Origin: a virus
Taxonomy: Duplodnaviria; Heunggongvirae; Uroviricota; Caudoviricetes
Strand: one strand, 5' to 3'
Length of the DNA stretch: 8,712 bases
Virus record (IMG/VR): IMGVR_UViG_2778261639_000012
Below are positions 1 through 8,712 of the stretch, piece by piece. How positions within the stretch are numbered: position 1 is the stretch's first letter; the number at the start of each line of letters is the position of its first letter. Both the position numbers and the translations under genes were made by a program. Below the pieces are notes generated by a model, which had not been told where the DNA came from, did not search any database, and saw only the letters and a program-made list of their open reading frames with translations.

Positions 1-167
1 CACTTCGCCTCTATCAGGCATGATGCTGAATTTCTGAATCCCATAGCATCTGGCTGTTCTCCGGTACTGGTTACAGCAACAAAGCGGTCATGAAAGCAAA
101 CCTTGAACCCGTTGCGCTTAAGGAACTTGTACGCAATCTGACAGAGTTCGTGGTGTGTTAACGCCAT
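1..167 (-). CDS. Partial CDS (5' end present, 3' end beyond window); putative PD-(D/E)xK-like nuclease-fold protein
   Basis: ATG at 167..165 preceded by AAAGGAG 6 nt upstream; frame open to window edge. N-terminus MALTHHELCQIAYKFLKRNGFKVCFHDRFVAVTSTGEQPDAMGFRNSASCLIEAK contains a D...E-x-K arrangement (PDAMGF...LIEAK) typical of PD-(D/E)xK nucleases. Family call is by eye only. Confidence 0.5.
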   Translation of the reverse strand, partial: MALTHHELCQIAYKFLKRNGFKVCFHDRFVAVTSTGEQPDAMGFRNSASCLIEAK

Positions 168-168
168 A

Positions 169-654
169 TCACTCTCCTTTGATGCGAATGCCTGTTGCAA
201 TGCTGTTTATGATGCTGTCAGTGCATGGGGTAGAAAGCTGGGCATCTCCAGCAATTTTCATGACCTCAACATCTGCATATCGAATACCGAGGTGTATCAG
301 ACCGGCTATGCCTGACTTAAGCCGAGCATTTTCCATAAATAGAACTTTTGCCCGCTGTTTTTCTGCTTCAAGCTCAACGCGCAGCTTCCCTACCGTTAGC
401 GCAATATCCTCGTTCTCCTGATCGCGGCTTTTGATGTATTGCAGGTTTCTTTCCCGTTCATCCAGCAGTGCCAGCACGGTTTCTGGTCCGGTCAGAAATT
501 TGAAGGCGTTGAGCGCATCAATATCCACACCGTAATCTTTAAGTTCCTGTTCACTTAACAAGTCATCATCAGCTGGCAACATTAACAGGCGTTCCATTGC
601 TGGAATTGCACGTTCCGCCACCTCACGCAGTGCCTGGTAATTAATTTCGCTCAC
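169..654 (-). CDS. Ead/Ea22-like family phage protein (161 aa)
   Basis: GTG start at 654 with AAGGAGG 6 nt upstream; N-terminus MSEINYQALREVAERA nearly identical to the paralog at 1720..2421; central coiled-coil segment; start overlaps upstream stop (GTGA). Confidence 0.7.
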   Translation of the reverse strand: MSEINYQALREVAERAIPAMERLLMLPADDDLLSEQELKDYGVDIDALNAFKFLTGPETVLALLDERERNLQYIKSRDQENEDIALTVGKLRVELEAEKQRAKVLFMENARLKSGIAGLIHLGIRYADVEVMKIAGDAQLSTPCTDSIINSIATGIRIKGE

Positions 655-1304
655 TGGTTGCCTCCTTTGCGAAGCTCAGCGGCGAAGGCTACTGCGTGAT
701 CATGATGTTCAAGCGTGTATGCACACTCCGCAAACATCTCCACGCCCTGCGCCCGGACTTCAGCCAGGAAAGCATCGGTGGCTGGCGTTTCCCGTGAACG
801 GTAAGACCAAACAATGTCGTCTGTTTCACTGGGTTCTTCATGAGAGCAATTTGGGCAGACAGCAGTACAACCAGCATGATCTTCTATGAGCATCTTCAGC
901 CACGAGTTCTCCTCCGCCAGCGTCACGCGACTGGCCTCCAGTTCTGCTACGCGCTGTTTTGCAGCATCCAGTTCAATCGACAATTTTTCCAACTGCTCTT
1001 TATGCTTTTTATATTCCTGATATGCGTGCCAAGACTGACCTTTGCGCACACTATCAGTGATATCAGCAACCTGCTCTGGTGTTAGCGTGGTCAGTGGCTG
1101 TGCTGGGAAAATAAGCACTTTCCCGGAATCCCAATCAAAACCAGCATGAATTGACTGAACCTCAACTGAAGGTGTTGAACCAATGCTGCCAGGCGAATGA
1201 ACAACGATCGTTACATCCATATCGCGACGATGGCTGTGGTTGTTGGACAAAATACGATTCAACAAAATACGATTCACCAACTCAGAAAATTTGGAGAATT
1301 TCAT
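651..1304 (-). CDS. Ead/Ea22-like family phage protein (217 aa; start uncertain)
   Basis: C-terminal SETPATDAFLAEVRAQG motif shared with the paralog at 1720..2421 (SETPATDAFLAEIRAEA); coiled-coil segment. ATG at 1304 has GAGG about 8 nt upstream and sits 8 nt after the upstream stop. Internal Met (MDVTIVV) is an alternative start without a Shine-Dalgarno. Confidence 0.6.
   Translation of the reverse strand: MKFSKFSELVNRILLNRILSNNHSHRRDMDVTIVVHSPGSIGSTPSVEVQSIHAGFDWDSGKVLIFPAQPLTTLTPEQVADITDSVRKGQSWHAYQEYKKHKEQLEKLSIELDAAKQRVAELEASRVTLAEENSWLKMLIEDHAGCTAVCPNCSHEEPSETDDIVWSYRSRETPATDAFLAEVRAQGVEMFAECAYTLEHHDHAVAFAAELRKGGNQ
1247..1276. repeat. Perfect 15-bp tandem direct repeat x2 (ACAAAATACGATTCA)
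   Basis: Read directly: 1247-1261 and 1262-1276 are identical. In frame within the N-terminal region of CDS 651..1304, encoding a duplicated LNRIL pentapeptide. Confidence 0.9.
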
Positions 1305-1312
1305 GCGGAGCC

Positions 1313-1723
1313 TCAGTATGTAAAATAGACAGTTGCCACGCCGTTATAGTGATCAAACGATACGGCATTTACTTCGTAGCTGGCAGGGAGCTTCGATCCG
1401 AGAACGTATCCGGGCCACGTTTTCCATGGAATTTCTCTGCGCTCACTATCGCCATATACCGTACATCCCAGAGAGCCTACAGCTTCATTAGAACGCGTGC
1501 CGCACGTTATGAATCCCAGATTTTGCTTACTGCTCTTAATGGTGATTGGGTGAACGCTGGCTGATGCATTAGCAGCACGCTGTGCCTGTTGGTTTGCGAT
1601 ATTCGCAGAGTTCGCAGCAGCTACAGCAGCCGTAGTCGCGGCGGTAGAGGCTACAATAGCTGCTGAAGCATGCACTTGTTGGATATTCACCAACAATGCC
1701 GCGACAAAAATCATCTTCTTCAC
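1313..1723 (-). CDS. Putative secreted/periplasmic protein with N-terminal signal peptide (136 aa)
   Basis: GTG start at 1723 with AAAGGAG 7 nt upstream, overlapping upstream stop (GTGA). N-terminus MKKMIFVAALLVNIQQVHA is a classic Sec signal peptide (AxA cleavage-like site), followed by an Ala/Asn/Gln-rich low-complexity linker and a C-terminal domain with two Cys. No lipobox. Confidence 0.6.
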   Translation of the reverse strand: MKKMIFVAALLVNIQQVHASAAIVASTAATTAAVAAANSANIANQQAQRAANASASVHPITIKSSKQNLGFITCGTRSNEAVGSLGCTVYGDSERREIPWKTWPGYVLGSKLPASYEVNAVSFDHYNGVATVYFTY

Positions 1724-2421
1724 TTGTCAGCTCCTTTGCGAATCTGTTCAGCCCATTCTTCAAGGGATTTCTCCGCATATTCACCGGACAGGCCATCAAT
1801 CGGGTACGGTTCATTAGCCAACTCTTCTTTCGCTGACAGAATCATGCGCGTAACGTCGAAAACTTCACGCAAAGACTTATTGATAAATCCGTGATTGAAC
1901 GCAGCAGCAAGACGGCTGGCGGTATAGTTAATCCCCTCGTTGCGTGCTTCCGCACGAATTTCAGCCAGAAAAGCATCGGTAGCTGGAGTTTCGCTGTGGT
2001 GTAGGGCATCGTTGATAATCATTGCAGCAACTCCGGCCTGCCCTGCATCCGTGACCGACACATGATCAAGAGTTACAGCCATTGCGTGTTTCAGCCCAGC
2101 GTTCTCTGCCACCAGAGCCGCGAGCTTAGTCTCAAGCGGTGCTATTCGGCACATAGCATCAATATTTGTGTCCTCCAGGCGCTTAATTTCACCAAGTAGC
2201 TCCAGTGCAACCTTTGGGTTGAATGCGGCAATATAACGAGCGTTGTTCTCTGCGTTTTTCAGTCCATCAAAGCCGGTCCATTTGATAACGTCTTCACATC
2301 GTTTATCACCGGGCGTATGCACCGCATACGTACCAGTACCCGGCGAAATAAATGCGACCCATTCGCCCTGTGTTGCCTGTTTTGCTATCTCACGCAGTGC
2401 CCGGTAATTAATTTCGCTCAC
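1720..2421 (-). CDS. Ead/Ea22-like family phage protein (233 aa from GTG; ORF track extends to 2457)
   Basis: GTG at 2421 preceded by AAGGAGG 6 nt upstream, giving N-terminus (M)SEINYRALREIAKQ, paralogous to 169..654. Contains the SETPATDAFLAE motif. The longer ORF-track start at 2457 lacks a Shine-Dalgarno and would overlap the upstream gene by 40 nt. Confidence 0.7.
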   Translation of the reverse strand: MSEINYRALREIAKQATQGEWVAFISPGTGTYAVHTPGDKRCEDVIKWTGFDGLKNAENNARYIAAFNPKVALELLGEIKRLEDTNIDAMCRIAPLETKLAALVAENAGLKHAMAVTLDHVSVTDAGQAGVAAMIINDALHHSETPATDAFLAEIRAEARNEGINYTASRLAAAFNHGFINKSLREVFDVTRMILSAKEELANEPYPIDGLSGEYAEKSLEEWAEQIRKGADK

Positions 2422-2657
2422 TGGCTGCCTCCTTTGCGGAGTTGCGCTTCGATGCACGAAAAAAAAGACTCCCGAGTATGACTGTTAAGAGCTGGTGCGA
2501 ACGCCGCGTTAAGAACGGCAGCATCACAGCCGTCATCAATATAGAGCGCAATTTTTTTCTCCAGGCGCGCTTTGGCTTCCTGCAACTGCATACCCCGGCA
2601 CGCACGCGGGATATAATCAGCAATTTGAGCGATAGCTTTTTCGTTCTGTTTAAACAT
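2418..2657 (-). CDS. Hypothetical phage protein (79 aa)
   Basis: ATG at 2657 with GAGGTGA 4-5 nt upstream; 8-nt overlap (ATGTTTAA) with the upstream gene; C-terminal ...RKGGSQ encoded by the Shine-Dalgarno of the next gene. Confidence 0.5.
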   Translation of the reverse strand: MFKQNEKAIAQIADYIPRACRGMQLQEAKARLEKKIALYIDDGCDAAVLNAAFAPALNSHTRESFFSCIEAQLRKGGSQ

Positions 2658-2853
2658 GCTTCACCTCGATAGGCTTGATGGTGTCTAACAGCAGTCGACG
2701 GCGCGTATTTTCTGCAAAGTGGCGGCGTCCGGTATCTTTGTGGTAAAACTCATTTTTGCCGACGACCCACATCCGCTCTGTTTGGTGCAGTTTTTTTACC
2801 TGCGGCCCGTCTTTGGTGATCACGGTGCCGGTATGGGTTTTTACGATTGTCAT
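2650..2853 (-). CDS. Hypothetical phage protein (67 aa)
   Basis: ATG at 2853 with GAGG about 9 nt upstream; translationally coupled to the downstream 79-aa gene. No recognisable motif. Confidence 0.45.
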   Translation of the reverse strand: MTIVKTHTGTVITKDGPQVKKLHQTERMWVVGKNEFYHKDTGRRHFAENTRRRLLLDTIKPIEVKHV

Positions 2854-2936
2854 GCCACTACCTCTTCGAACAGATGAACGAGACAGGCCGATGCTCGTCC
2901 ACCTGAAAAACTGACGATTTGATGCATACTCACGGT

Positions 2937-3227
2937 TTATTCCTGAATGCGCTTAAACTCGATTACCCACACCCAGGGATTAGCGTTCCAGCTTTCTTCA
3001 CCATAGATGGATTCCCACAGGTGCTGGAACGCAACCTTGGCCATTGCGAAATCCCTCTTGGGAGTAAGGAATGTTCCCGGGTGATCAGGAAGCAAACTTC
3101 CAGCAGGCGGAACGCCCTCAGCCCTTGCATCGCATTCGCTGATATCGTTCAACCGTTCAACGCGCACGTTGGTAATTTCCAACAGAATGGTGATGCCCAT
3201 CGCGGCATGTGAATTGATGGACGCCAC
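2937..3227 (-). CDS. ASCH-domain protein, C-terminal fragment (96-aa ORF; probably the 3' part of a frameshifted gene)
   Basis: C-terminus SIYGEESWNANPWVWVIEFKRI resembles the terminal beta-strand signature of ASCH proteins (compare E. coli YqfB ...DIYPGQTQFYVIEFK, recalled from memory). Starts only at a GTG with no Shine-Dalgarno, inside the 3' end of ORF 3149..3664. Confidence 0.45.
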   Translation of the reverse strand: MASINSHAAMGITILLEITNVRVERLNDISECDARAEGVPPAGSLLPDHPGTFLTPKRDFAMAKVAFQHLWESIYGEESWNANPWVWVIEFKRIQE

Positions 3228-3664
3228 CCACCATCAAACTTTTCATTCACAGTGTGAGGTTTCCAGTCGGCATCATCGGGTATCGACCATAAGCCGTAAT
3301 CACCAGGTTTTTGCTCACAACTGGCCCGATAAATCCTTGCTGCGTTCTTCTCATCGCCACGACAAAGGTTGTCGTTCCAGTCCACACTGCAACCATCTTC
3401 ATTGCCTAATATCGTCCATGTTTCACGAACCCAAATTCGATCGCCGACGATACCAAAGGGGCAATTGAAAACACTGCTTACACCATCAGCCCCGTACCAC
3501 TGAAAACCTGCACCAATTTCCCTAACCATCACTGGTGCTTCTGGACCAACTTCCGCAGGCTGATTTTTCATTATCCGCCGCGTCTGCGTTTTCCTTCCTT
3601 CGAGGATGGCTCGGACCATCTCATCGTTGAAAATCATGCCGCGCTCTTTCACTTCGCCTTTCAT
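3149..3664 (-). CDS. ASCH-domain protein, N-terminal part (171-aa ORF)
   Basis: ATG at 3664 with AAGGGGGA just upstream; N-terminal FNDEMVRAILEGRKTQTRR matches the ASCH GxKxxExR-type motif. ORF ends at 3149 in a different frame from the 96-aa ORF that carries the matching C-terminal ASCH strand. Confidence 0.6.
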   Translation of the reverse strand: MKGEVKERGMIFNDEMVRAILEGRKTQTRRIMKNQPAEVGPEAPVMVREIGAGFQWYGADGVSSVFNCPFGIVGDRIWVRETWTILGNEDGCSVDWNDNLCRGDEKNAARIYRASCEQKPGDYGLWSIPDDADWKPHTVNEKFDGGWRPSIHMPRWASPFCWKLPTCALNG

Positions 3665-3673
3665 GCATCCCCC

Positions 3674-3760
3674 TTACCCATGCGCGACGATGCCGCCAAA
3701 AGTGATAGAGAACAGCCAGAAATAGATCGCGGCCATAATGATTTTGAATGCCGTGTTCAT
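3674..3760 (-). CDS. Small hydrophobic peptide (28 aa, MNTAFKIIMAAIYFWLFSITFGGIVAHG), predicted single transmembrane helix
   Basis: Translated by hand. ATG at 3760 preceded by AGGAG with 8-nt spacing; TAA stop at 3676..3674, 9 nt before the ASCH gene start. Below the ORF-track length cutoff. Almost entirely hydrophobic/aromatic. Confidence 0.5.
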   Translation of the reverse strand: MNTAFKIIMAAIYFWLFSITFGGIVAHG

Positions 3761-3787
3761 ATTTTCAGCTCCTGTGATTGATTGGAT

Positions 3788-3820
3788 ACATGCCGCGCCT
3801 TGCGGCATGTTTTTATTTTC
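3788..3820 (+). terminator. Intrinsic-terminator-like hairpin oriented on the plus strand
   Basis: Stem ACATGCCGC (3788-3796), loop GCCTT, stem GCGGCATGT (3802-3810), then TTTTATTTTC (3811-3820). On the minus strand the hairpin is not followed by a U-tract. Confidence 0.5.
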
Positions 3821-3829
3821 ACTTTCTCT

Positions 3830-3859
3830 GTTTTAAAAATCAAGATTTATTAGAGCAAT
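3830..3859. repeat. 30-bp element GTTTTAAAAAT-N6-TTATTAGAGCAAT, copy A
   Basis: 26/30 identical to 5971-6000. Abuts the stop codon (3859-3861) of the HAD gene. Confidence 0.8.
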
Positions 3860-4365
3860 TATTGTTGATGGAGAAGCGCGTTTTCATACTCCCTGACCAT
3901 TAACGTAAGTACGCCGTGACTCCTGAAAACACGCGCCACGTCAATCTTATCTTCCAGCGCGAACGCAATTTTACTTAGACCAATTTTCTTCAGGAGATCA
4001 ATCTTTGCTGGACCGTCATTTCTGTCATCGGTGGCAGGACGCATAGATAGCAAAGGCTCAGTCCCATTTGTTACGTGCTTACGCAACCAGGCTCGTGTTT
4101 TATCCCTGGCTATCTCACAGCGCCCGGTTACAAACCAGAGGGTGTAAATGCCGGACAACTGGCGCACCATATCAATAACTGGAGTGATGGGAGCATCAGT
4201 GTCACAGGCAAGGTTAAACTCGTTCCAGTGCTCTGTTAATGCACCTTTGCCAGGTGGTGGAAGTAAATGCAGCCTGTCTTCCGTTGCCTCTGATATCGTC
4301 CCATCAATATCTACTATGACGATGTACGGACGTTCCTGGTGTGCGTGTTTATTGAAAATACTCAA
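3859..4365 (-). CDS. HAD-superfamily phosphatase-like protein (168 aa)
   Basis: Motif I DIDGT (IVIVDIDGTI) near the N-terminus, Thr motif II (WFVTGR), downstream Lys and acidic (EDKID) motifs consistent with the HAD fold; resembles phage polynucleotide 3'-phosphatase/nucleotidase domains. Only start is TTG at 4365, with GAGGAGG about 4 nt upstream. Confidence 0.6.
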   Translation of the reverse strand: MSIFNKHAHQERPYIVIVDIDGTISEATEDRLHLLPPPGKGALTEHWNEFNLACDTDAPITPVIDMVRQLSGIYTLWFVTGRCEIARDKTRAWLRKHVTNGTEPLLSMRPATDDRNDGPAKIDLLKKIGLSKIAFALEDKIDVARVFRSHGVLTLMVREYENALLHQQ

Positions 4366-4437: not shown

Positions 4438-5700
4438 TCAGCGAACGTAAATAGTGCCGCCGTTCTCTTTTTCCCATGCATCGCTACGTGCATAGCAAAC
4501 ATCGAGAAGTCTTCTTGCCGCAGTTTCCTCTAAACCCAATTCGACAACCAACTGCTCATGACGGCGGGTAACCACATCAAACAGGGTATGCAGCCCTTTA
4601 GTTGCCAGATCATCAATGAATTCCGGTTCGAACGGCAGCTCTGCATCTGCCAACATAACCTCTTGCGCCCACTCAACTCGACGGACCAATTCCGGGCGGC
4701 GGCTTTCCATCTCTTTACAGATCAATTCATGGAAGAACTCTACCCAACCTTCCGGCTGGAACTCGCGGAAAATTGCCAACGGCTGGAAGTTTGGCATCAA
4801 CCATTCGTTGATTCGGATATCAATGGCATAGCCCATGTCGCAGCAGAACTGATAAGCAAAGTCCAGCTTAGACACGATATAAGGACGCTCGTTATTGAAC
4901 TCTTTAGGCGATGAGATCCCATAAGCCAGGAGGCGCGGGAAGAAGGATATTTGCCCTAACGTCGGATGAAGTTTGCTTGCAGGGAAACGGCGCTCAGTAA
5001 TGCCATACATTTCCTTCTTGAGCGTCGCAAATTTGGCATTCTCATTAACCAGCGCGGTAACCTCTGCTTTTTTATTAGCAAATGCCACGCGCGCTTCGCT
5101 TGCATCTTTAATAGTTTTTTTGAGCTGTTGGTTAAGGTCGGCGACCTGCTTACGCAGTTCCTGTCGCTCGCTTTTAGCTTTGTTATAGCGTTTCTCAAGG
5201 TTAAAAGGATCAAGTTTCATGATCTCTTTATATTGAGATTTTAGCGTTGAAATCTGTGAGTTCCGCAGTTCAACCATCGCGGTCATTTCATTGAGTTTTG
5301 TTTCCAGCTCAATGCTTATACGTTCGGCATTATCAGCACGCTGGTTGGCGTCATGCGTCGCATCGTCGATCGCGTCCTGTTGCTGGCGTTTCAAATGTTC
5401 AATTTGCAGCTGAAGCTCTTCAATTTCTTTATCCTTCAGACCGAGATCCAACTGCATATTTTCAGCTGCATCTACCAGGGAGTTATGGCTATCAGCTTCT
5501 GCGTTATAAACATCAATAAGCTGTGCGTGAAGCATCTCCGCTGACTGAACCGCATTATCAAAAAAACGCGCTGTGAGGTCATCACAACTAACGCGGCGTT
5601 GCGCGGCCCGGATGTTCTGGATAATGGCCGGGATACCGGCATTCAGGACGTCAGGGATAGATACATTTTCGATTGATTGGTTTTGTGCTGAAGTGATCAT
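4438..5700 (-). CDS. Hypothetical phage protein, N-terminal coiled coil plus C-terminal globular domain of unknown function (420 aa)
   Basis: Long ORF; residues about 80-250 are heptad-rich and charged (EIEELQLQIEHLKRQQQ..., ELRKQVADLNQQLKK); C-terminal 170 aa rich in aromatics with no recognisable catalytic motif. Start ATG at 5700 is 1 nt after the stop of the upstream 72-aa gene. Confidence 0.7.
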   Translation of the reverse strand: MITSAQNQSIENVSIPDVLNAGIPAIIQNIRAAQRRVSCDDLTARFFDNAVQSAEMLHAQLIDVYNAEADSHNSLVDAAENMQLDLGLKDKEIEELQLQIEHLKRQQQDAIDDATHDANQRADNAERISIELETKLNEMTAMVELRNSQISTLKSQYKEIMKLDPFNLEKRYNKAKSERQELRKQVADLNQQLKKTIKDASEARVAFANKKAEVTALVNENAKFATLKKEMYGITERRFPASKLHPTLGQISFFPRLLAYGISSPKEFNNERPYIVSKLDFAYQFCCDMGYAIDIRINEWLMPNFQPLAIFREFQPEGWVEFFHELICKEMESRRPELVRRVEWAQEVMLADAELPFEPEFIDDLATKGLHTLFDVVTRRHEQLVVELGLEETAARRLLDVCYARSDAWEKENGGTIYVR

Positions 5701-5701
5701 T

Positions 5702-5920
5702 TCAAAGTTCCGTATTAGCTTGTGCTTCGGTCATTTTTCCTAAGTATGAAGGAGGAAGGACTACGCAATTTGTATCCAGTCCCTCACCTATGGCAGCCTG
5801 TAAAATTCTGGCTAAGGTGAGTCTCTTGTTGCGATACCTGGTGATGACATGCCTGATACCGCCGGTCGGCGTAACAAAGGCGATCAGCCAGTAGTGATAT
5901 TTCCGTCGGAATGGCCACAT
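5702..5920 (-). CDS. Hypothetical small protein (72 aa)
   Basis: ATG at 5920 with AAGGTG 5 nt upstream; first gene after terminator T2. Basic, Arg-rich (MWPFRRKYHYWLIAFVTPTGGIRHVITRYRNKR...). Function unknown. Confidence 0.55.
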   Translation of the reverse strand: MWPFRRKYHYWLIAFVTPTGGIRHVITRYRNKRLTLARILQAAIGEGLDTNCVVLPPSYLGKMTEAQANTEL

Positions 5921-5932
5921 AGTGCACCTTGT

Positions 5933-6002
5933 ATATTGCTCTAATAAAAAACGTGATGAGTGTACATCACGTTTTAAAAATATGGAATTATTAGAGCAAT
6001 AT
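5933..6002. repeat. 15-bp perfect inverted repeat arms (ATATTGCTCTAATAA / TTATTAGAGCAATAT) flanking terminator T2; right arm is part of 30-bp element copy B (5971-6000)
   Basis: Read directly: 5933-5947 is the reverse complement of 5988-6002. 5971-6000 (GTTTTAAAAATATGGAATTATTAGAGCAAT) matches 3830-3859 at 26/30 positions. Confidence 0.8.
5943..5975 (-). terminator. Rho-independent terminator (mainly minus strand) nested within a 15-bp inverted repeat
   Basis: Stem AAAACGTGATG (5948-5958) / CATCACGTTTT (5965-5975), loop AGTGTA; on the minus strand followed by TTTTTTATT. Lies downstream of the stop of CDS 6002..6703. Confidence 0.65.
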
Positions 6003-6703
6003 TATTCTGATTCTCGCTCAAAAAATGAGCTGATAAGGGGAAGCCAATCCTCTGACACTTCGCGAGGTCGCGGTTTGCCGTGGAAAAAGATTATTCGGCA
6101 GTCTTTTGGTAATGCCCCATTCCCCCTGGAGTAACGCGCGCTCGCATATTTTGAACCAGGTTCCACAACATCGGCCTTGTAACTTACAAACCATCCTGGA
6201 TACAGATCCTGAAATGCTGGTGTATCATCGCCCATAACCTTTCGTAAGAACCCCTGGTCACCCCAACACTCAGTAGTGACACAACGAGAAATCCAACCTT
6301 CCGGATCTTGCCAGAATGAACTCCAGATATGCGCTTTAACACTATTTGGTATCCACAAGGCACCGCTGCCACGATATTGTGGATGGTAAAAATCCCTAAG
6401 CATGGTGAAGCTGGTTGGTGGATGCTCTAGGATTGGGCGTATATCACCGGCAATAACCGTGTCCAAATCCAGATAGAACAGATCATCGGTTATATCCGGT
6501 CGGAACAACTCGATTTTCGCCCACCAGCCACGGCACTTTTGCCACTGGTTGATCAATGGGACAACTTTGACGCCAGGTACATGTAAACGCTTCAGGTCTG
6601 TCAGGCAAATAATTTCATAGCCTTTTGGCAGTTGATTAACCAGCCACTGCACATCGGAAGCGTTATAGTCACCACCAGAGCGAAAAACTAAAGCAATCTT
6701 CAT
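6002..6703 (-). CDS. Putative GT-A-fold (GT8-like) glycosyltransferase with DxD motif (233 aa)
   Basis: N-terminal beta-strand [12 protein letters not shown] and DxD context [20 protein letters not shown] resemble retaining GT8 enzymes (compare LgtC ...VLYLDIDVLVRD..., recalled from memory). ATG at 6703 overlaps the phosphatase stop (ATGA) with AAGGTGA upstream. Confidence 0.5.
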
Positions 6704-7392
6704 GCTGCACCATCACCTTTCACTTTCATCAATGTCAGGTTTCCGCAAAATACGGCACCAGTGTCGATATACTGCTGATTCCAGAATGTCTTCGGGCTTT
6801 TCACCGGAGTGTGACCAAAGATAAAACGATCTGCGCCCGAAATTTCGCCACCAATATCATCCATCGAATCACTGATACGCTCGCGCGCCCAGACAACGTT
6901 GAAAAGCGGCACCTCCTTACCGAATTGGTATTCATTATCCGGATAGTCGGCATGGGCTATAACGATAGTTTCTTGCCCGGTGTTCAACTCAATGATATAG
7001 GGCAGACGCTTTACCAGCTCCACCAGCGCCCAGGCTAATATTTCCTGATCAGTGTCCAGCATGAAGAACCATTGTCCGCCATTCATTAGCCAGTTATTCA
7101 CGTTGCCATCTGGACTTAACGCATCAATCATCAGCCGCTCATGGTTCCCCATCACTGCCCTGAACCAGGGCATCTGCAATAGTTCCAGACATTCGACATT
7201 TTCAGTACCGCGATCGATAAGGTCGCCGACCGATATCAGTAAATCCTGCGCCGGGTCAAAATCCACACGATGGAGTTCGGACATCAGTCTGGTGTAGCAA
7301 CCATGCAGATCACCAACAACCCAGACATTCCTGTATTTGGTACCGTCGATACGGTGATAAATTGTGGGTGCCATCATGTATTCTTCAGCCAT
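6700..7392 (-). CDS. Serine/threonine protein phosphatase, lambda PPase / PrpA-PrpB family (calcineurin-like metallophosphoesterase)
   Basis: Conserved motifs GDLHG, GDLIDRG, GNHE and close overall resemblance to phage lambda ORF221 phosphatase ([21 protein letters not shown]...FRAVMGNHE...[14 protein letters not shown]). Real start may be the internal ATG at 7377 or 7374, matching the lambda PPase N-terminus and removing the overlap with the upstream gene. Confidence 0.85.
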
Positions 7393-8000
7393 TCTTTAAG
7401 AGTCATCTGCGGAATACCTCCCATTTTCCCGCATGAAACAACGTCAATCCGTTCACGCGCAGACTGGAATAACAAAGGCAGGTGACTTAGATTTTTTGGC
7501 GTGCCGCCGGAGTGAACGCGTGGTTCTTGTGTAGCGTCAACGCCCACCAGGGCGACATGTTTGAATCCGATATGGAAAGCCAGGTTCAGAGCGCCATATG
7601 CACTATTGCCGCTGGCAATTTCATTCTCATCTTCGCAAAGTCCGAAATGTGCGGACCAGCGCCACGCCCACCACTCGGGAGAATTCGTATTTTTTGGCTC
7701 CATGCCACGTTCAGCCACACGACGGAAGCACAGAACGCCGTCTCTGACTTCACGTTCTTTAACATCGGGTAGTGCCATGCAATAACAAACACCACGGCGA
7801 CGGCGGCCACGACCAACGCGCCGCATATTGTCTGGCGATGGATCAAGTGTGAAAAAATAAGAAGCGCGGTTCAGCCAGTCGATGGCCCCATTGACCGCTA
7901 TAATCGGCACTCCGCGCGGCGCAACAAAGTTTGCGGCGCTTGGGCCACTGCCGACGATAATAACGCGATCACTGCCTCTAAATTTATTCTTGGGAAACAT
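7374..8000 (-). CDS. DUF115/MAF-like (GT42 sialyltransferase-like / MptE-like) Rossmann-fold protein, paralog B (208 aa)
   Basis: N-terminal [14 protein letters not shown] ... [11 protein letters not shown] and later [26 protein letters not shown] match the GxGPS / G-S-x-L-x-LA-x-G-(x)n-LxGxD pattern I associate with PF01973-type proteins. ATG at 8000 with AGGAG upstream. Confidence 0.6.
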
Positions 8001-8527
8001 TGAATTGCACTGCTCCTACTTGCATTCAAAATATGTAAATCTGCGTGTTTTTTGCGGGTATCCAGGAACTGCTGTTGCCATTTTGAAATAGACACCTGCG
8101 TTGGATTCCGTAGGGCTTGAGGGTGCGCGCCATGCCAATGAAGGCCGTTTTGCAGAGAACAGTCATAGCCGACTAATACCACTACTTCAGCCCCTGATTC
8201 AGCAGCCAGACTGATAGCCTGCGCGCCGCTATTTACCCCTTCCGCCGGTCCACAATATCGCCTGTACTCCAACGAAAATGATTTCGCCGCCGCCAGGTTG
8301 GCTGTCACTTTGCGGAATCTCCCTCCCGGTATGGTGGATCCGTATTGCTTCCACCATGACAAATCACCGGCGTATAAGGCATAAATGTCATCGAACATCT
8401 GCCAGGAATTGTTAACCGCGATGATTGAACAGCCAGTTTTTTCTATAGCAGCACAGTCCTCACGAGTGAGTGACGGACCGCTACCGACACAAAAAACAGT
8501 CCTAGTCGCCCTGGGTGGTATGTTCAT
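7898..8527 (-). CDS. DUF115/MAF-like Rossmann-fold protein, paralog A (209 aa from ATG 8527; ORF track extends to 8560)
   Basis: TVFCVGSGPSLT ... IIAVNNSW and NSGAQAISLAAESGAEVVVLVGYDCS parallel paralog B. Start at 8527 chosen because it places GxGPS at the same distance from the N-terminus as in paralog B and shortens the overlap with the upstream gene; weak Shine-Dalgarno either way. Confidence 0.55.
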   Translation of the reverse strand: MNIPPRATRTVFCVGSGPSLTREDCAAIEKTGCSIIAVNNSWQMFDDIYALYAGDLSWWKQYGSTIPGGRFRKVTANLAAAKSFSLEYRRYCGPAEGVNSGAQAISLAAESGAEVVVLVGYDCSLQNGLHWHGAHPQALRNPTQVSISKWQQQFLDTRKKHADLHILNASRSSAIQCFPRINLEAVIALLSSAVAQAPQTLLRRAECRL

Positions 8528-8712
8528 TCTCAGCTGCAAATTCAGCCTCCAGGCGAGCATTCATTTCAGCGATTACAGGGTCCACTACAGCATCTGTTTC
8601 CTGTTCATTACGCGGCATGATCGATGCCAGCGATTCATAATTAGCCTTGGATGACACGACTATTCTCCCGATGTTAATGTGCGCTATATCAAATGGCGCA
8701 TATGTACTAATT
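8502..8712 (-). CDS. Partial CDS (3' end only; 5' end beyond window), hypothetical protein
   Basis: Open frame from the window edge to TAG at 8504..8502 (...VVDPVIAEMNARLEAEFAAENEHTTQGD*); overlaps the start of the next gene. No motif recognised. Confidence 0.45.
   Translation of the reverse strand, partial: ISTYAPFDIAHINIGRIVVSSKANYESLASIMPRNEQETDAVVDPVIAEMNARLEAEFAAENEHTTQGD

What the first reader, a model, noticed from the sequence alone, without database searches (positions are those of the whole stretch)
6002..8560. Coupled four-gene cassette: two DUF115/MAF-like paralogs, a lambda-type Ser/Thr phosphatase and a DxD glycosyltransferase
Four minus-strand genes are packed with overlapping or abutting stop-start junctions and end at a clean intrinsic terminator, so they look co-translated as a unit. 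Two are paralogs with the GxGPS Rossmann signature I associate with the DUF115 family (Campylobacter Maf flagellin-glycosylation proteins, GT42 sialyltransferases such as CstII, archaeal MptE pyrophosphokinase). One has a GT8-like DxD core. One is a near-canonical lambda PPase. The sequence suggests a prophage-encoded sugar or nucleotide-sugar transfer module acting on a host or phage macromolecule (LPS core, a protein, or nucleic acid), possibly regulated by or coupled to dephosphorylation. I know of no characterised lambdoid function for DUF115-type proteins, so this is a candidate undescribed system; the functional link is inference.
Basis: partly seen in the sequence, partly recalled or inferred. 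Interest (0 to 1): 0.75.

Follow-up and report, generated by a model that had tools for sequence, protein, structure and literature searches.

The report
Phage P1 pmgO-pmgP-ppp-pmgQ sugar-transfer cassette
These four genes are the long-annotated but uncharacterised pmgO, pmgP, ppp and pmgQ of a P1-like phage-plasmid; three of them form a sugar-transfer module that recurs beside head genes in many phages of Gram-negative bacteria and probably glycosylates phage structural proteins, while the phosphatase is an unrelated insertion.

Summary
Four tightly packed minus-strand genes at 6002-8560 end at a strong terminator hairpin. They are not lambdoid and not new. The DNA is 98.5% identical to phage P1 pmgO-pmgP-ppp-pmgQ, which published work lists as non-essential and of unknown function.

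- Ppp matches lambda phosphatase at E 1e-94.

The four-gene unit does not hold. The O/P/Q trio recurs without Ppp in about 20 unrelated contexts, and phage D6 has ppp without the trio.

The trio usually sits in late or head operons, often directly after the major capsid gene (for example Pseudomonas phage D3 orf7). In P1 it lies just upstream of the head-completion gene pmgR. Partners and fusions include methyltransferases (one a TylF-type sugar O-methyltransferase), extra glycosyltransferases, Ig-like domains and invasin-like genes. All matching isolated phages with an informative bacterial host label infect Gram-negatives.

Best reading (about 0.45): a cytoplasmic glycosylation cassette acting on virion or surface proteins. 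Main rival (about 0.2): LPS-core remodelling by WaaZ/WaaJ-like enzymes.

The parts
8502..8657 (-). pmgN, a 51-aa ORF and first gene of the operon; it overlaps the pmgO start by 59 nt
   Evidence: ORF; annotated PmgN in P1. No Pfam or PADLOC hit. A CRISPRi knock-down scored it as essential, but the same table lists the knockout as non-essential.
7898..8560 (-). pmgO, 220 aa, a DUF115/MptE-like single-domain enzyme (phrog_4603). The start may really be Met12 at 8527.
   Evidence: phrog_4603 at 4e-74. Pfam MptE-like is sub-threshold at 23.4 bits against 34.6. hhalign to the PmgP family gives Prob 98.1, E 9e-14. There is a weak CstII match on the GPSL and SG..G.D motifs. Invariant residues are GPSL 28-31, N50, D66, SG 111-112, GYDCS 131-135, H141 and H143.
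7374..8000 (-). pmgP, 208 aa, the second and more conserved DUF115/MptE-like paralog (phrog_2111)
6700..7392 (-). ppp, 230 aa, a lambda-type Ser/Thr (PPP-family) metallophosphatase; an insertion specific to the P1 lineage, between pmgP and pmgQ
   Evidence: 1g5b lambda PPase at E 1.5e-94. Pfam Metallophos scores 59.3 bits against 21.5. The motifs GDLHG, GDLIDRG, GNHE and GHTP are present in the translation. It is absent from all non-P1 trio loci and present alone in D6.
6002..6703 (-). pmgQ, 233 aa, a GT8-like GT-A glycosyltransferase (phrog_1962)
5942..5975 (-). intrinsic terminator hairpin (AAAACGUGAUG-UACACU-CAUCACGUUUU plus a U-rich tail) that ends the operon
   Evidence: Sequence. The fold of 5935-6010 gives -26.6 kcal/mol with z -8.6.
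5935..6000 (.). pair of inverted C1-repressor operator-like sites (P1 Op86a/b) flanking the terminator; control region of the next operon (pmgR-pmgS)
   Evidence: the DNA search finds 3 window matches against 0.04 expected. The P1 annotation names them OpmgRa and OpmgRb and places PpmgR here.
5702..5920 (-). [quoted passage not shown] It provides context and is not part of the cassette.
   Evidence: ORF; P1 annotation. The knockout gives unjoined heads and tails (PMC9024508).

Best explanation
The region is the pmgN-pmgO-pmgP-ppp-pmgQ operon of a P1-like phage-plasmid.

Shown:
- pmgO and pmgP encode two distantly related single-domain enzymes with the DUF115/MptE-like nucleotide-binding fold.
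- pmgQ encodes a GT8-like, DxD-containing GT-A glycosyltransferase.
- ppp encodes a lambda-type phosphatase.
- O, P and Q form a module conserved across many unrelated phages of Gram-negative bacteria. Ppp is not part of that module.

Inferred:
- The trio is a cytoplasmic glycan-building cassette expressed during lytic growth. It would use host nucleotide sugars: a UDP-hexose for PmgQ, and a CMP-activated ulosonic acid for the DUF115 pair. CMP-Kdo is the obvious candidate in these hosts.
- It builds a short O-linked glycan on proteins that end up outside the cell. In phages these would be virion proteins, most likely head proteins. In some enterobacterial chromosomes they would be invasin/intimin-like proteins.
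- PmgO, the more divergent paralog and the one encoded next to the putative substrate gene, would prime the acceptor. PmgP and PmgQ would extend the glycan.
- The modification is dispensable in the laboratory. It would matter for particle surface properties such as shielding, stability or adsorption.
- ppp is an independent accessory gene that landed inside the cassette in the P1 lineage.
For: Identity: the DNA is 98.5-99% identical to P1, P7, RCS47 and SJ46 across pmgN-pmgR.

Folds and families.

Conserved trio without Ppp: an HMM scan of 25 loci found PmgP together with PmgQ in 22, PmgO in most, and Ppp only in the three P1-like loci. The same holds for phiNP, EP_H11, XacN1 and L305-L307.

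Late or head-module position, with overlapping stop and start codons and no room for promoters:
- MCP, then O-P-Q, then connectors in a Pseudomonas prophage.
- MCP and adaptor, then P-Q, then head closure in Ochrobactrum.
- MCP, then O-P-MTase-Q, then the Ad1 adaptor in Zhongshania.
- P-Q-GT, then Ad1 and Hc1.
- Lysis genes, then O-P-Q, then TerS in C. rodentium phiNP.
- Lysis genes, then P-MTase-Q-O, then TerS.
- An O-P fusion followed by Q, after the lysis genes.

A PmgO-like gene lies within 1 kb downstream of HK97-type capsid genes in 44 of 80 loci of one capsid lineage and 15 of 65 of another. In the second lineage the capsid proteins of PmgO-positive loci are about 33-93% identical to the query. 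The first lineage includes Pseudomonas phage D3 orf7.

P1 keeps the same synteny: pmgQ is followed by pmgR, a head-completion gene.

Carbohydrate context:
- Class-I methyltransferases and extra GT-A genes sit inside the module.
- One fusion joins PmgO to a TylF-type sugar O-methyltransferase.
- Natural O-P fusions exist.

Protein-acceptor hints:
- PmgO lies directly downstream of an invasin/intimin-family gene in five Enterobacteriaceae genomes.
- PmgO lies next to Big_1 proteins in Serratia.
- One protein fuses PmgO to Big_1 and Big_13 domains.

Hosts: all matching isolated phages with an informative bacterial host label infect Gram-negative bacteria; the collection holds 50,697 records. This fits a donor such as CMP-Kdo. 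A weak but specific similarity links the DUF115 pair to the Kdo transferase WaaZ (PMC6358824).
Against: - No direct evidence exists that any P1 or D3 virion protein is glycosylated. The P1 proteomics paper and the recent P1 head-structure paper mention no glycan.
- Neither DUF115 protein reaches the Pfam threshold on its own.
- The invariant Asp (PmgO D66, PmgP D53) appears to sit where CstII has an Asn. That is my reading from a recalled CstII sequence and was not aligned here.
- The expected acceptor signal was not general. Ser-rich capsid C-terminal tails track the module in three close comparisons but not across lineages.
- Two contexts place the module next to ribonucleotide reductase or exonuclease genes rather than head genes.
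- The P1 operon has an early, C1-controlled promoter in the annotation.
- The Gram-negative restriction and the WaaZ/WaaJ similarity fit an LPS acceptor equally well.
Confidence: 0.45

Rival explanations
1. LPS-core remodelling. PmgO and PmgP act like WaaZ, adding an extra Kdo to the inner core. PmgQ acts like the GT8 core enzymes WaaJ and WaaO. Together they would change the LPS glycoform of the infected cell. This could remove or mask the LPS-core receptor, so that progeny are not lost on debris or superinfection is limited.
For: Among the 14 E. coli K-12 Waa proteins, the PmgO and PmgP HMMs pick WaaZ (11.7 and 15.0 bits, against at most 5 bits for 500 shuffles). The PmgQ HMM picks WaaJ (17.2 bits). 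The waaJ and waaZ genes lie close together in the host operon. The O-P fusion protein P0051 carries a faint precomputed WaaZ_KDO_III hit, and BLASTP aligns it to WaaZ at E 3e-4 over the shared motifs. WaaZ-driven addition of a third Kdo goes with truncation of the outer core (PMC6358824). From my own knowledge, P1 adsorbs to the LPS core. The family occurs only in phages of Gram-negative bacteria. The high conservation of PmgP across host orders fits a universal acceptor such as Kdo2-lipid A.
Against: - The similarity to WaaZ is only at superfamily level, about as strong as the match to CstII. hhalign against the single WaaZ sequence gives only 14-16% probability.
- In most phages the genes are embedded in head or late operons with overlapping codons. 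In P1 they are repressed in the lysogen. That is too late in infection to replace outer-membrane LPS and rules out lysogenic conversion.
- The links to capsid genes, invasin-like genes and Ig-like domains are not explained.
- D3 has its own seroconversion genes, which from my own knowledge lie elsewhere in its genome.
Confidence: 0.2
2. One reading: all four genes form one functional unit, in which the Ser/Thr phosphatase regulates the sugar transfer or is chemically coupled to it. One example would be removal of a phosphate from the acceptor or from a phospho-sugar intermediate.
For: The four genes are translationally coupled and form one transcription unit ending at a terminator. All 80 P1-like loci begin O-P-Ppp, and 78 read exactly O-P-Ppp-Q. 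The ppp insertion is old within the lineage: it is present in the Pantoea alvi locus, where PmgP is only 72% identical. The DUF115 fold also includes pyrophosphokinases.
Against: Ppp is absent from all of the roughly 20 non-P1 contexts of the trio. It occurs without the trio in the P1 relative D6, among nin-region-type small ORFs. It is 64% identical to lambda PPase according to the P1 annotation; from my own knowledge the lambda gene lies in the unrelated nin region. Published tables list ppp and each pmg gene as non-essential.
Confidence: 0.08
3. PmgO and PmgP are not glycosyltransferases. They would be MptE- or thiamin-pyrophosphokinase-like enzymes that pyrophosphorylate a small molecule or a sugar, with PmgQ using or modifying the product.
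Against: The module co-occurs with GT-A glycosyltransferases, and one family member is fused to a TylF-type sugar O-methyltransferase. Three of the four characterised branches of the fold transfer CMP-ulosonic acids: Maf, the GT42 and GT29 sialyltransferases, and WaaZ. No pterin or thiamin pathway genes appear in any neighbourhood examined.
Confidence: 0.07
4. Nucleic-acid modification: the cassette glycosylates phage DNA or RNA late in infection as an anti-restriction measure, in the manner of Mom.
For: In a Sinomicrobium phage and in the jumbo phage XacN1 the module lies beside ribonucleotide reductase or exonuclease genes. From my own knowledge, late-expressed DNA modification has a precedent in Mu Mom.
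Against: The 24 non-essential P1 knockouts showed no change in antirestriction activity (PMC9024508). From my own knowledge, the GT8 and DUF115 folds are not known to act on DNA. The accompanying methyltransferases are of the small-molecule type, not DNA methyltransferases. None of the proteins hits a defence-related model.
Confidence: 0.05

Closest known systems
Maf (motility-associated factor) flagellin glycosyltransferases, e.g. Magnetospirillum Maf, PDB 5mu5
   Different: The 5mu5 chain is 632 residues. From my own knowledge, Maf proteins carry extra N- and C-terminal domains for substrate binding. PmgO and PmgP are bare domains of about 200 aa at 19% identity. The window carries no nonulosonic-acid synthesis genes, and the neighbourhoods that were annotated showed none. 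The acceptor here is not flagellin.
GT42 sialyltransferases CstI and CstII (Campylobacter)
   Different: The sequence match is only E 0.2-0.6. The hosts are not known to make CMP-sialic acid as a rule, so sialyl transfer itself is unlikely. From my recollection of the CstII sequence and mechanism, PmgO and PmgP lack the lid and membrane-association regions, and an invariant Asp replaces CstII Asn51. The equivalent of catalytic His188 was not established.
WaaZ, the LPS inner-core Kdo III transferase of E. coli K-12
   Same: It has the same motif set (SGP[ST]xQ, AVNGS, L[DT]D, AYxL..I..G.D.T). It is the specific top hit of both the PmgO and PmgP HMMs among the Waa proteins. From my own knowledge its donor is CMP-Kdo, which all Gram-negative hosts make. 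Its role as the third-Kdo transferase is stated in PMC6358824.
   Different: The match is only 12-15 bits. WaaZ is 283 aa. It acts on lipid-linked core oligosaccharide. The phage genes have head-module and surface-protein gene neighbours instead.
GT8 retaining glycosyltransferases (LgtC, glycogenin, GlyE, Skp1 alpha-GalT, WaaJ, WaaO)
   Different: It falls below the Pfam PF01501 threshold: there is no hit for the window protein, and 9 of 31 relatives hit at E of 0.026 or worse. It is small (233 aa) and 13-17% identical. The donor sugar and acceptor are unknown.
Mycobacteriophage virion glycosylation (Che8, Corndog, Myrna; Freeman et al. 2023, known to me and cited within papers)
   Same: Both involve phage-encoded glycosyltransferases, non-essential in the laboratory, that modify (or here are proposed to modify) capsid or tail subunits. 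The gene content is similar (glycosyltransferases plus a methyltransferase).
   Different: In mycobacteriophages the glycans were shown by experiment. Here glycosylation is an inference. The hosts here are Gram-negative. I did not test whether the enzymes are homologous. DUF115-type enzymes were found only in phages of Gram-negative bacteria.
Bacteriophage lambda Ser/Thr protein phosphatase (PDB 1g5b; NinI)
   Same: Ppp aligns over 219 residues at E 1.5e-94 with all metal-binding motifs.
   Different: The genomic position differs. It sits inside the pmg cassette rather than in a nin region. Its substrates in P1 are unknown.

Membership tests
Pfam PF01973 MptE-like / DUF115 | Score at or above the Pfam gathering threshold (34.6 bits) | tested here: not met
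   PmgO scores 23.4 bits and PmgP 21.0 bits, matching only the C-terminal part of the profile. All 45 PmgP relatives hit weakly, the best at 8.6e-7. Natural O-P fusion proteins do pass, at 41.5-44.6 bits. Several homologs carry a precomputed PF01973 hit.
Pfam PF01973 MptE-like / DUF115 | Three-dimensional fold of the family (Maf, MptE, CstI/II) | tested here: met
Pfam PF01973 MptE-like / DUF115 | N-terminal GxGPS nucleotide-binding loop and the central SG...G-x-D motif | tested here: met
   PmgO has GSGPS at 26-30, NSG at 110-112 and GYD at 131-133. PmgP has GSGPS at 17-21, NS at 132-133 and GVD at 153-155. These are invariant or nearly invariant in alignments A1 and A2 and align to the CstII motifs.
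GT42 sialyltransferase (CstII type) | Catalytic His (CstII His188) and phosphate-binding Tyr156 and Tyr162; CMP-Neu5Ac as donor | tested here: inconclusive
   Conserved His residues exist downstream of the G-x-D motif (PmgO H141, H143, H146; PmgP H173). No alignment to His188 was obtained. The Tyr positions are not conserved. The donor cannot be tested with these tools.
Maf flagellin glycosyltransferase | Multi-domain architecture (about 600 aa) with flanking substrate-binding domains; located in a flagellar glycosylation island | tested here: not met
   PmgO and PmgP are single domains of 220 and 208 aa, while the 5mu5 chain is 632 residues. The neighbours are phage head or lysis genes, not flagellar genes.
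WaaZ / Kdo III transferase family (Pfam PF27901) | Significant sequence match to WaaZ | tested here: inconclusive
   WaaZ scores 15.0 bits (PmgP HMM) and 11.7 bits (PmgO HMM), against at most 5 bits for 500 shuffles, and is the top hit among 14 Waa proteins. BLASTP of the fusion P0051 against WaaZ gives E 3e-4. hhalign probability is only 14-16% against the single sequence. Only a 'faint' PF27901 hit is on record, for one relative.
GT8 glycosyltransferase (Pfam PF01501; CAZy GT8) | Pfam gathering-threshold match | tested here: not met
   The window PmgQ has no Pfam hit. Nine of 31 relatives match weakly, the best at E 0.026.
GT8 glycosyltransferase (Pfam PF01501; CAZy GT8) | GT-A fold closest to GT8 members, a DxD metal and nucleotide-sugar motif, and a C-terminal His ligand | tested here: met
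PPP-family / lambda phosphatase (Pfam PF00149 Metallophos) | Pfam threshold; the GDxHG, GDxxDRG and GNHE motifs; close match to lambda PPase | tested here: met
   Ppp scores 59.3 bits against a cutoff of 21.5. 1g5b matches at E 1.5e-94 over 219 residues. GDLHG at 27-31, GDLIDRG at 56-62 and GNHE at 82-85 are in the translation.
Phage virion glycosylation system (mycobacteriophage type) | Glycans demonstrated on capsid or tail subunits, dependent on the phage glycosyltransferase genes | not testable with these tools
   Only context supports it: the head-module position and the P1 synteny with pmgR. The P1 papers searched mention no glycan.
Anti-phage defence or counter-defence systems (PADLOC models) | Match to a known defence-system protein model | tested here: not met
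   PmgN, PmgO, PmgP, Ppp, PmgQ and PmgR have no hit.

The most novel reading that the evidence does not exclude
P1, D3 and thousands of other phages of Gram-negative bacteria decorate their capsid or other virion proteins with a short O-glycan. The glycan would contain Kdo or another CMP-activated ulosonic acid and would be built by a WaaZ/Maf-like DUF115 pair plus a GT8 enzyme. To my knowledge this would be the first virion glycosylation system in phages of Gram-negative bacteria and the first protein-linked Kdo. Related chromosomal copies would glycosylate invasin/intimin-type adhesins.
Probability: 0.15. Interest if true: 0.85.

Novelty: new variant of a known kind. Interest (0 to 1): 0.55.

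Why it matters
P1 is a workhorse of E. coli genetics, yet about a third of its genes, including these four, have no known role.

If the O/P/Q trio glycosylates virions, particle glycosylation would extend from mycobacteriophages to a very large set of phages of Gram-negative bacteria. The PmgO family alone has 7685 clusters at 50% identity, and it includes phages of Pseudomonas, Klebsiella, Caulobacter and Xanthomonas. That bears on antibody recognition and clearance in phage therapy, on particle stability, and on how cryo-EM and proteomics of these phages are read.

It would also define the chemistry of a large, uncharacterised branch of the DUF115 fold. If the LPS rival is right instead, the cassette would be a lytic-phase receptor-editing device, which would also be new.

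Either way, the practical point is that the unit to study is O+P+Q, with or without a methyltransferase, and not the four-gene block.

Tried and rejected
1. **Capsid C-terminal tail as the acceptor signature.**
   - In three close comparisons the module-positive capsid proteins end in Ser-rich tails (GSLSES or GSLTAS against GPLTPAA or GDLTAA; SGATGS against AAA, AE or AVNP; CTLS against CEA or CAE).
   - Across the third lineage, PmgO-positive capsids end in GDFI, GSF, GNLTL or GDLTI, and one GSF capsid lacks PmgO.
   - The signal is suggestive, phylogenetically confounded and not general.
2. **The small S/A/P-rich protein after the capsid gene (D3 orf6.5 type) as partner or substrate.** It is present in PmgO-positive and PmgO-negative relatives alike, so I rejected it.
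3. **Isoelectric point as a discriminator of membrane-peripheral LPS enzymes.** It was not informative.
4. **PADLOC defence models.** No hits.
5. **The IMG/VR scan with the PmgP alignment.** It returned only near-identical P1-like loci, which were useful only for checking gene order.
6. **Organism names for distant or fused homologs.** All were unnamed metagenomic proteins.
7. **hhalign of the family profiles against the single WaaZ sequence.** Probability was low, 14-16%.
8. **Foldseek against AFDB50,** to see whether WaaZ is a top structural neighbour. The library was not available. The BFVD search gave only uncharacterised viral DUF115 proteins.
9. **Literature searches** for capsid or virion glycosylation in phages of Gram-negative bacteria and for DUF115 in phages. 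Nothing relevant was found in the held library. The P1 genome paper (Lobocka 2004) is not held.
10. **The simple terminator scan.** It missed the hairpin, which was confirmed by folding.

Full report
**What is there**

| Coordinates | Length |
|---|---|
| 7898-8560 | 220 aa |
| 7374-8000 | 208 aa |
| 6700-7392 | 230 aa |
| 6002-6703 | 233 aa |

Their junctions overlap by 103, 19 and 4 nt. A fifth, 51-aa ORF (8502-8657) overlaps the start of the first gene.

Downstream of the last gene lies an 11-bp stem, 6-nt loop hairpin followed by a U-rich tail. Folded with its flanks it gives -26.6 kcal/mol, z = -8.6. The hairpin is nested between two inverted copies of the P1 C1-repressor operator (three matches in the window against 0.04 expected).

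**Identity**

Megablast shows the region is 98.5-99% identical to phage P1, P7, RCS47, SJ46 and related P1-like phage-plasmids. The window as a whole matches 1419 plasmid records.

In the curated P1 record the genes are pmgN, pmgO, pmgP, ppp and pmgQ. A C1 operator (Oppp/Op83) and a sigma-70 promoter lie upstream. The bivalent C1 operator Op86a/b of the pmgR-pmgS operon lies downstream.

The element is therefore not lambdoid and the genes are not newly seen. A genome-wide CRISPRi study lists pmgO, pmgP, ppp and pmgQ as non-essential and cites the single-gene knockout study for the same result (PMC10695390). That study reports 24 knockouts without plaque or antirestriction defects (PMC9024508). 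No function has been assigned.

**The proteins**

- **Ppp** is an unambiguous lambda-type phosphatase: 1g5b at E 1.5e-94, and Metallophos at 59 bits.
- **PmgO and PmgP** share only the N-terminal GSGPS stretch by BLASTP (E 0.003).
  - Their family alignments match at hhalign probability 98.1%, E 9e-14, over 164 columns, so they are distant paralogs.
  - Both fall below the Pfam MptE-like/DUF115 threshold (23 and 21 bits against 34.6). All 45 PmgP relatives hit the family weakly.
  - Natural PmgO-PmgP fusion proteins do pass the threshold.
- **PmgQ** has no Pfam hit.
  - Its family profile finds GT8 structures (6mw5 at E 2.5e-6).
  - It has an invariant DLD motif and a conserved FHGxPRP motif.

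**The unit is three genes, not four**

I looked up distant homologs in their contigs and scanned one genome per species. The PmgO/PmgP/PmgQ trio recurs, in varying order, in about 20 unrelated contexts. Ppp appears only in the P1-like loci.

Conversely, the P1 relative D6 has ppp among nin-type small ORFs and lacks the trio. Within the P1 lineage the insertion is fixed: all 80 loci begin O-P-Ppp, 78 of them reading exactly O-P-Ppp-Q. Ppp is therefore an accessory gene that landed inside a pre-existing module. Comparative data give no support for functional coupling to dephosphorylation.

**Where the trio sits**

In most phage contexts it is embedded in late or head operons, with overlapping stop and start codons:

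| Host or phage | Arrangement |
|---|---|
| Pseudomonas prophage | capsid gene, O-P-Q plus an extra DxD-containing ORF (my reading), connectors |
| Ochrobactrum | capsid gene and adaptor, P-Q, head closure |
| Zhongshania | capsid gene, O-P-methyltransferase-Q, adaptor |
| Methylophilaceae | P-Q-glucosyltransferase, adaptor and head closure |
| C. rodentium phage phiNP | lysis genes, O-P-Q, small terminase |
| Alloalcanivorax | lysis genes, P-methyltransferase-Q-O, terminase |
| Uncultured phage (Logan contig L305) | lysis genes, O-P fusion, Q |

Sampling from the capsid side gave the same picture. A PmgO-like gene lies within 1 kb downstream of HK97-type capsid genes in 44 of 80 loci of one lineage. 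That lineage is the Pseudomonas phage D3/PMG1 group, where the gene is orf7. In a second lineage the figure is 15 of 65 loci, with capsid identity to the query of about 33-93% among PmgO-positive loci.

P1 keeps the same logic. The gene right after pmgQ is pmgR, whose deletion gives unjoined heads and tails.

There are exceptions. In a Sinomicrobium phage and in the jumbo phage XacN1 the module lies beside ribonucleotide reductase genes.

**What it probably does**

Several results point to glycan synthesis rather than pyrophosphoryl transfer:
- The constant pairing with a GT8-like enzyme.
- Class-I methyltransferases and additional GT-A genes inside the module.
- A PmgO fusion to a TylF-type sugar O-methyltransferase.
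- Three of the four characterised branches of the fold (Maf, sialyltransferases, WaaZ) transfer CMP-activated ulosonic acids.

Several results point to a protein acceptor:
- The persistent linkage of PmgO to capsid genes.
- A PmgO gene directly downstream of an invasin/intimin-family inverse autotransporter in five Enterobacteriaceae genomes (4e1t at E 3.5e-84).
- PmgO next to Big_1 proteins in Serratia.
- A PmgO-Big_1-Big_13 fusion.

Natural O-P fusions suggest that the two paralogs work together.

Among 50,697 phage records, every matching isolated phage with an informative bacterial host label infects a Gram-negative host. The collection contains very many phages of Gram-positive hosts. This fits a donor peculiar to Gram-negative bacteria.

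Both DUF115 HMMs specifically pick the Kdo transferase WaaZ among the E. coli Waa proteins (15.0 and 11.7 bits, against at most 5 for 500 shuffles). The window encodes no sugar-nucleotide synthesis genes. CMP-Kdo is therefore my leading guess for the donor. That step is inference only.

**The main rival**

The same WaaZ similarity, the WaaJ similarity of PmgQ, the Gram-negative restriction and the strong conservation of PmgP across host orders also fit an LPS-core acceptor. WaaZ-dependent Kdo III addition goes with truncation of the outer core (PMC6358824). From my own knowledge, that outer core carries the P1 receptor.

I rank this rival lower for three reasons:
- The genes are repressed in the P1 lysogen.
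- In other phages they are wired into head operons, which is late for replacing outer-membrane LPS.
- It does not explain the links to capsid genes, invasin-like genes and Ig-like domains.

It is not excluded.

**What failed**

A Ser-rich capsid C-terminal tail tracks the module in three close comparisons but not generally. The small protein encoded after the capsid gene is not module-specific. No paper in the held library reports glycans on P1 or D3 particles.

**Verdict**

The genes are known. Their function is not. The comparative picture gives a specific, testable hypothesis: a widespread O/P/Q glycosylation cassette linked to virion head genes in phages of Gram-negative bacteria.

My confidence that the trio builds a glycan is about 0.7. 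My confidence in the best explanation as stated, which includes a virion or surface-protein acceptor, is about 0.45.

Noticed in passing
window 7898-8000 (pmgO/pmgP overlap); locus L305 7962-9131: pmgO and pmgP overlap by 103 nt in different frames. In an unrelated phage contig the two are a single fused protein: the N-terminal half is PmgO-like (218 bits) and the C-terminal half PmgP-like (335 bits). Other tandem DUF115-DUF115 fusions exist (P0223, P0242). The last 11 residues or so of the window PmgO are a P1-specific extension, absent from close homologs.
   Followed up: partly
loci L093-L097 (about 3357-9248); L003; L103: There are chromosomal, not obviously prophage copies of the trio in Pseudescherichia, Buttiauxella and Serratia. 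PmgO lies directly downstream of an invasin/intimin-family inverse autotransporter (1178 aa). P and Q lie beside an endolysin/spanin/holin cassette. This may be a system that glycosylates adhesins or proteins released by lysis.
   Followed up: partly
locus L191 (Pseudomonas phage D3) 5813-6409, 7748-9143: D3 orf7 is a PmgO homolog. Its annotated start (5951) cuts off the GPS nucleotide-binding loop, and the ORF extends upstream to 5813. Between the connector and tail genes D3 also carries orf12 (275 aa, no family hit) and orf13, a class-I methyltransferase.
   Followed up: partly
window 5935-6000: The terminator hairpin of the ppp operon is nested inside the inverted pair of C1 operators of the next operon. 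Repressor binding and termination therefore share one 66-bp palindromic element.
   Followed up: partly
window 8502-8657 (pmgN): A CRISPRi knock-down of pmgN scored as essential (efficiency of plating 1.4e-2). The same table lists the pmgN knockout, and knock-downs of the four downstream genes, as non-essential. A simple polar effect does not explain this.
   Followed up: no
window 3843-3859 and 1-3800: A near-perfect C1 operator (1 mismatch) sits just downstream of pap. Beyond it the window departs from P1: pmgT, pmgU and pmgV are replaced by genes that the best plasmid matches annotate as ead/Ea22-like and DUF4752. This looks like a variable cargo region of P1-like plasmids.
   Followed up: no
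window 169-654, 651-1304, 1720-2457 (all minus strand): Three neighbouring ORFs share sequence blocks. SEINY[QR]ALRE[VI]A occurs in the 161-aa and 245-aa ORFs. ETPATDAFLAE[VI]RA occurs in the 217-aa and 245-aa ORFs. This suggests mosaic paralogs made by recombination.
   Followed up: no
window 1313-1723 (minus strand): A 136-aa ORF has a signal-peptide-like N-terminus (MKKMIFVAALLVNIQQVHA/SA). It may be a secreted or envelope moron product.
   Followed up: no
window 3859-4365 (pap) and 4438-5700 (pmgS): Pap is annotated in P1 as a putative acid phosphatase. The best plasmid matches list a '3'-phosphatase 5'-polynucleotide kinase phage-associated protein' among the features under the window, which I take to be pap. 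If so, the region carries two unrelated phosphatases. The weak LmuB hits of PmgS are probably noise from its coiled-coil region, which the P1 annotation notes.
   Followed up: no
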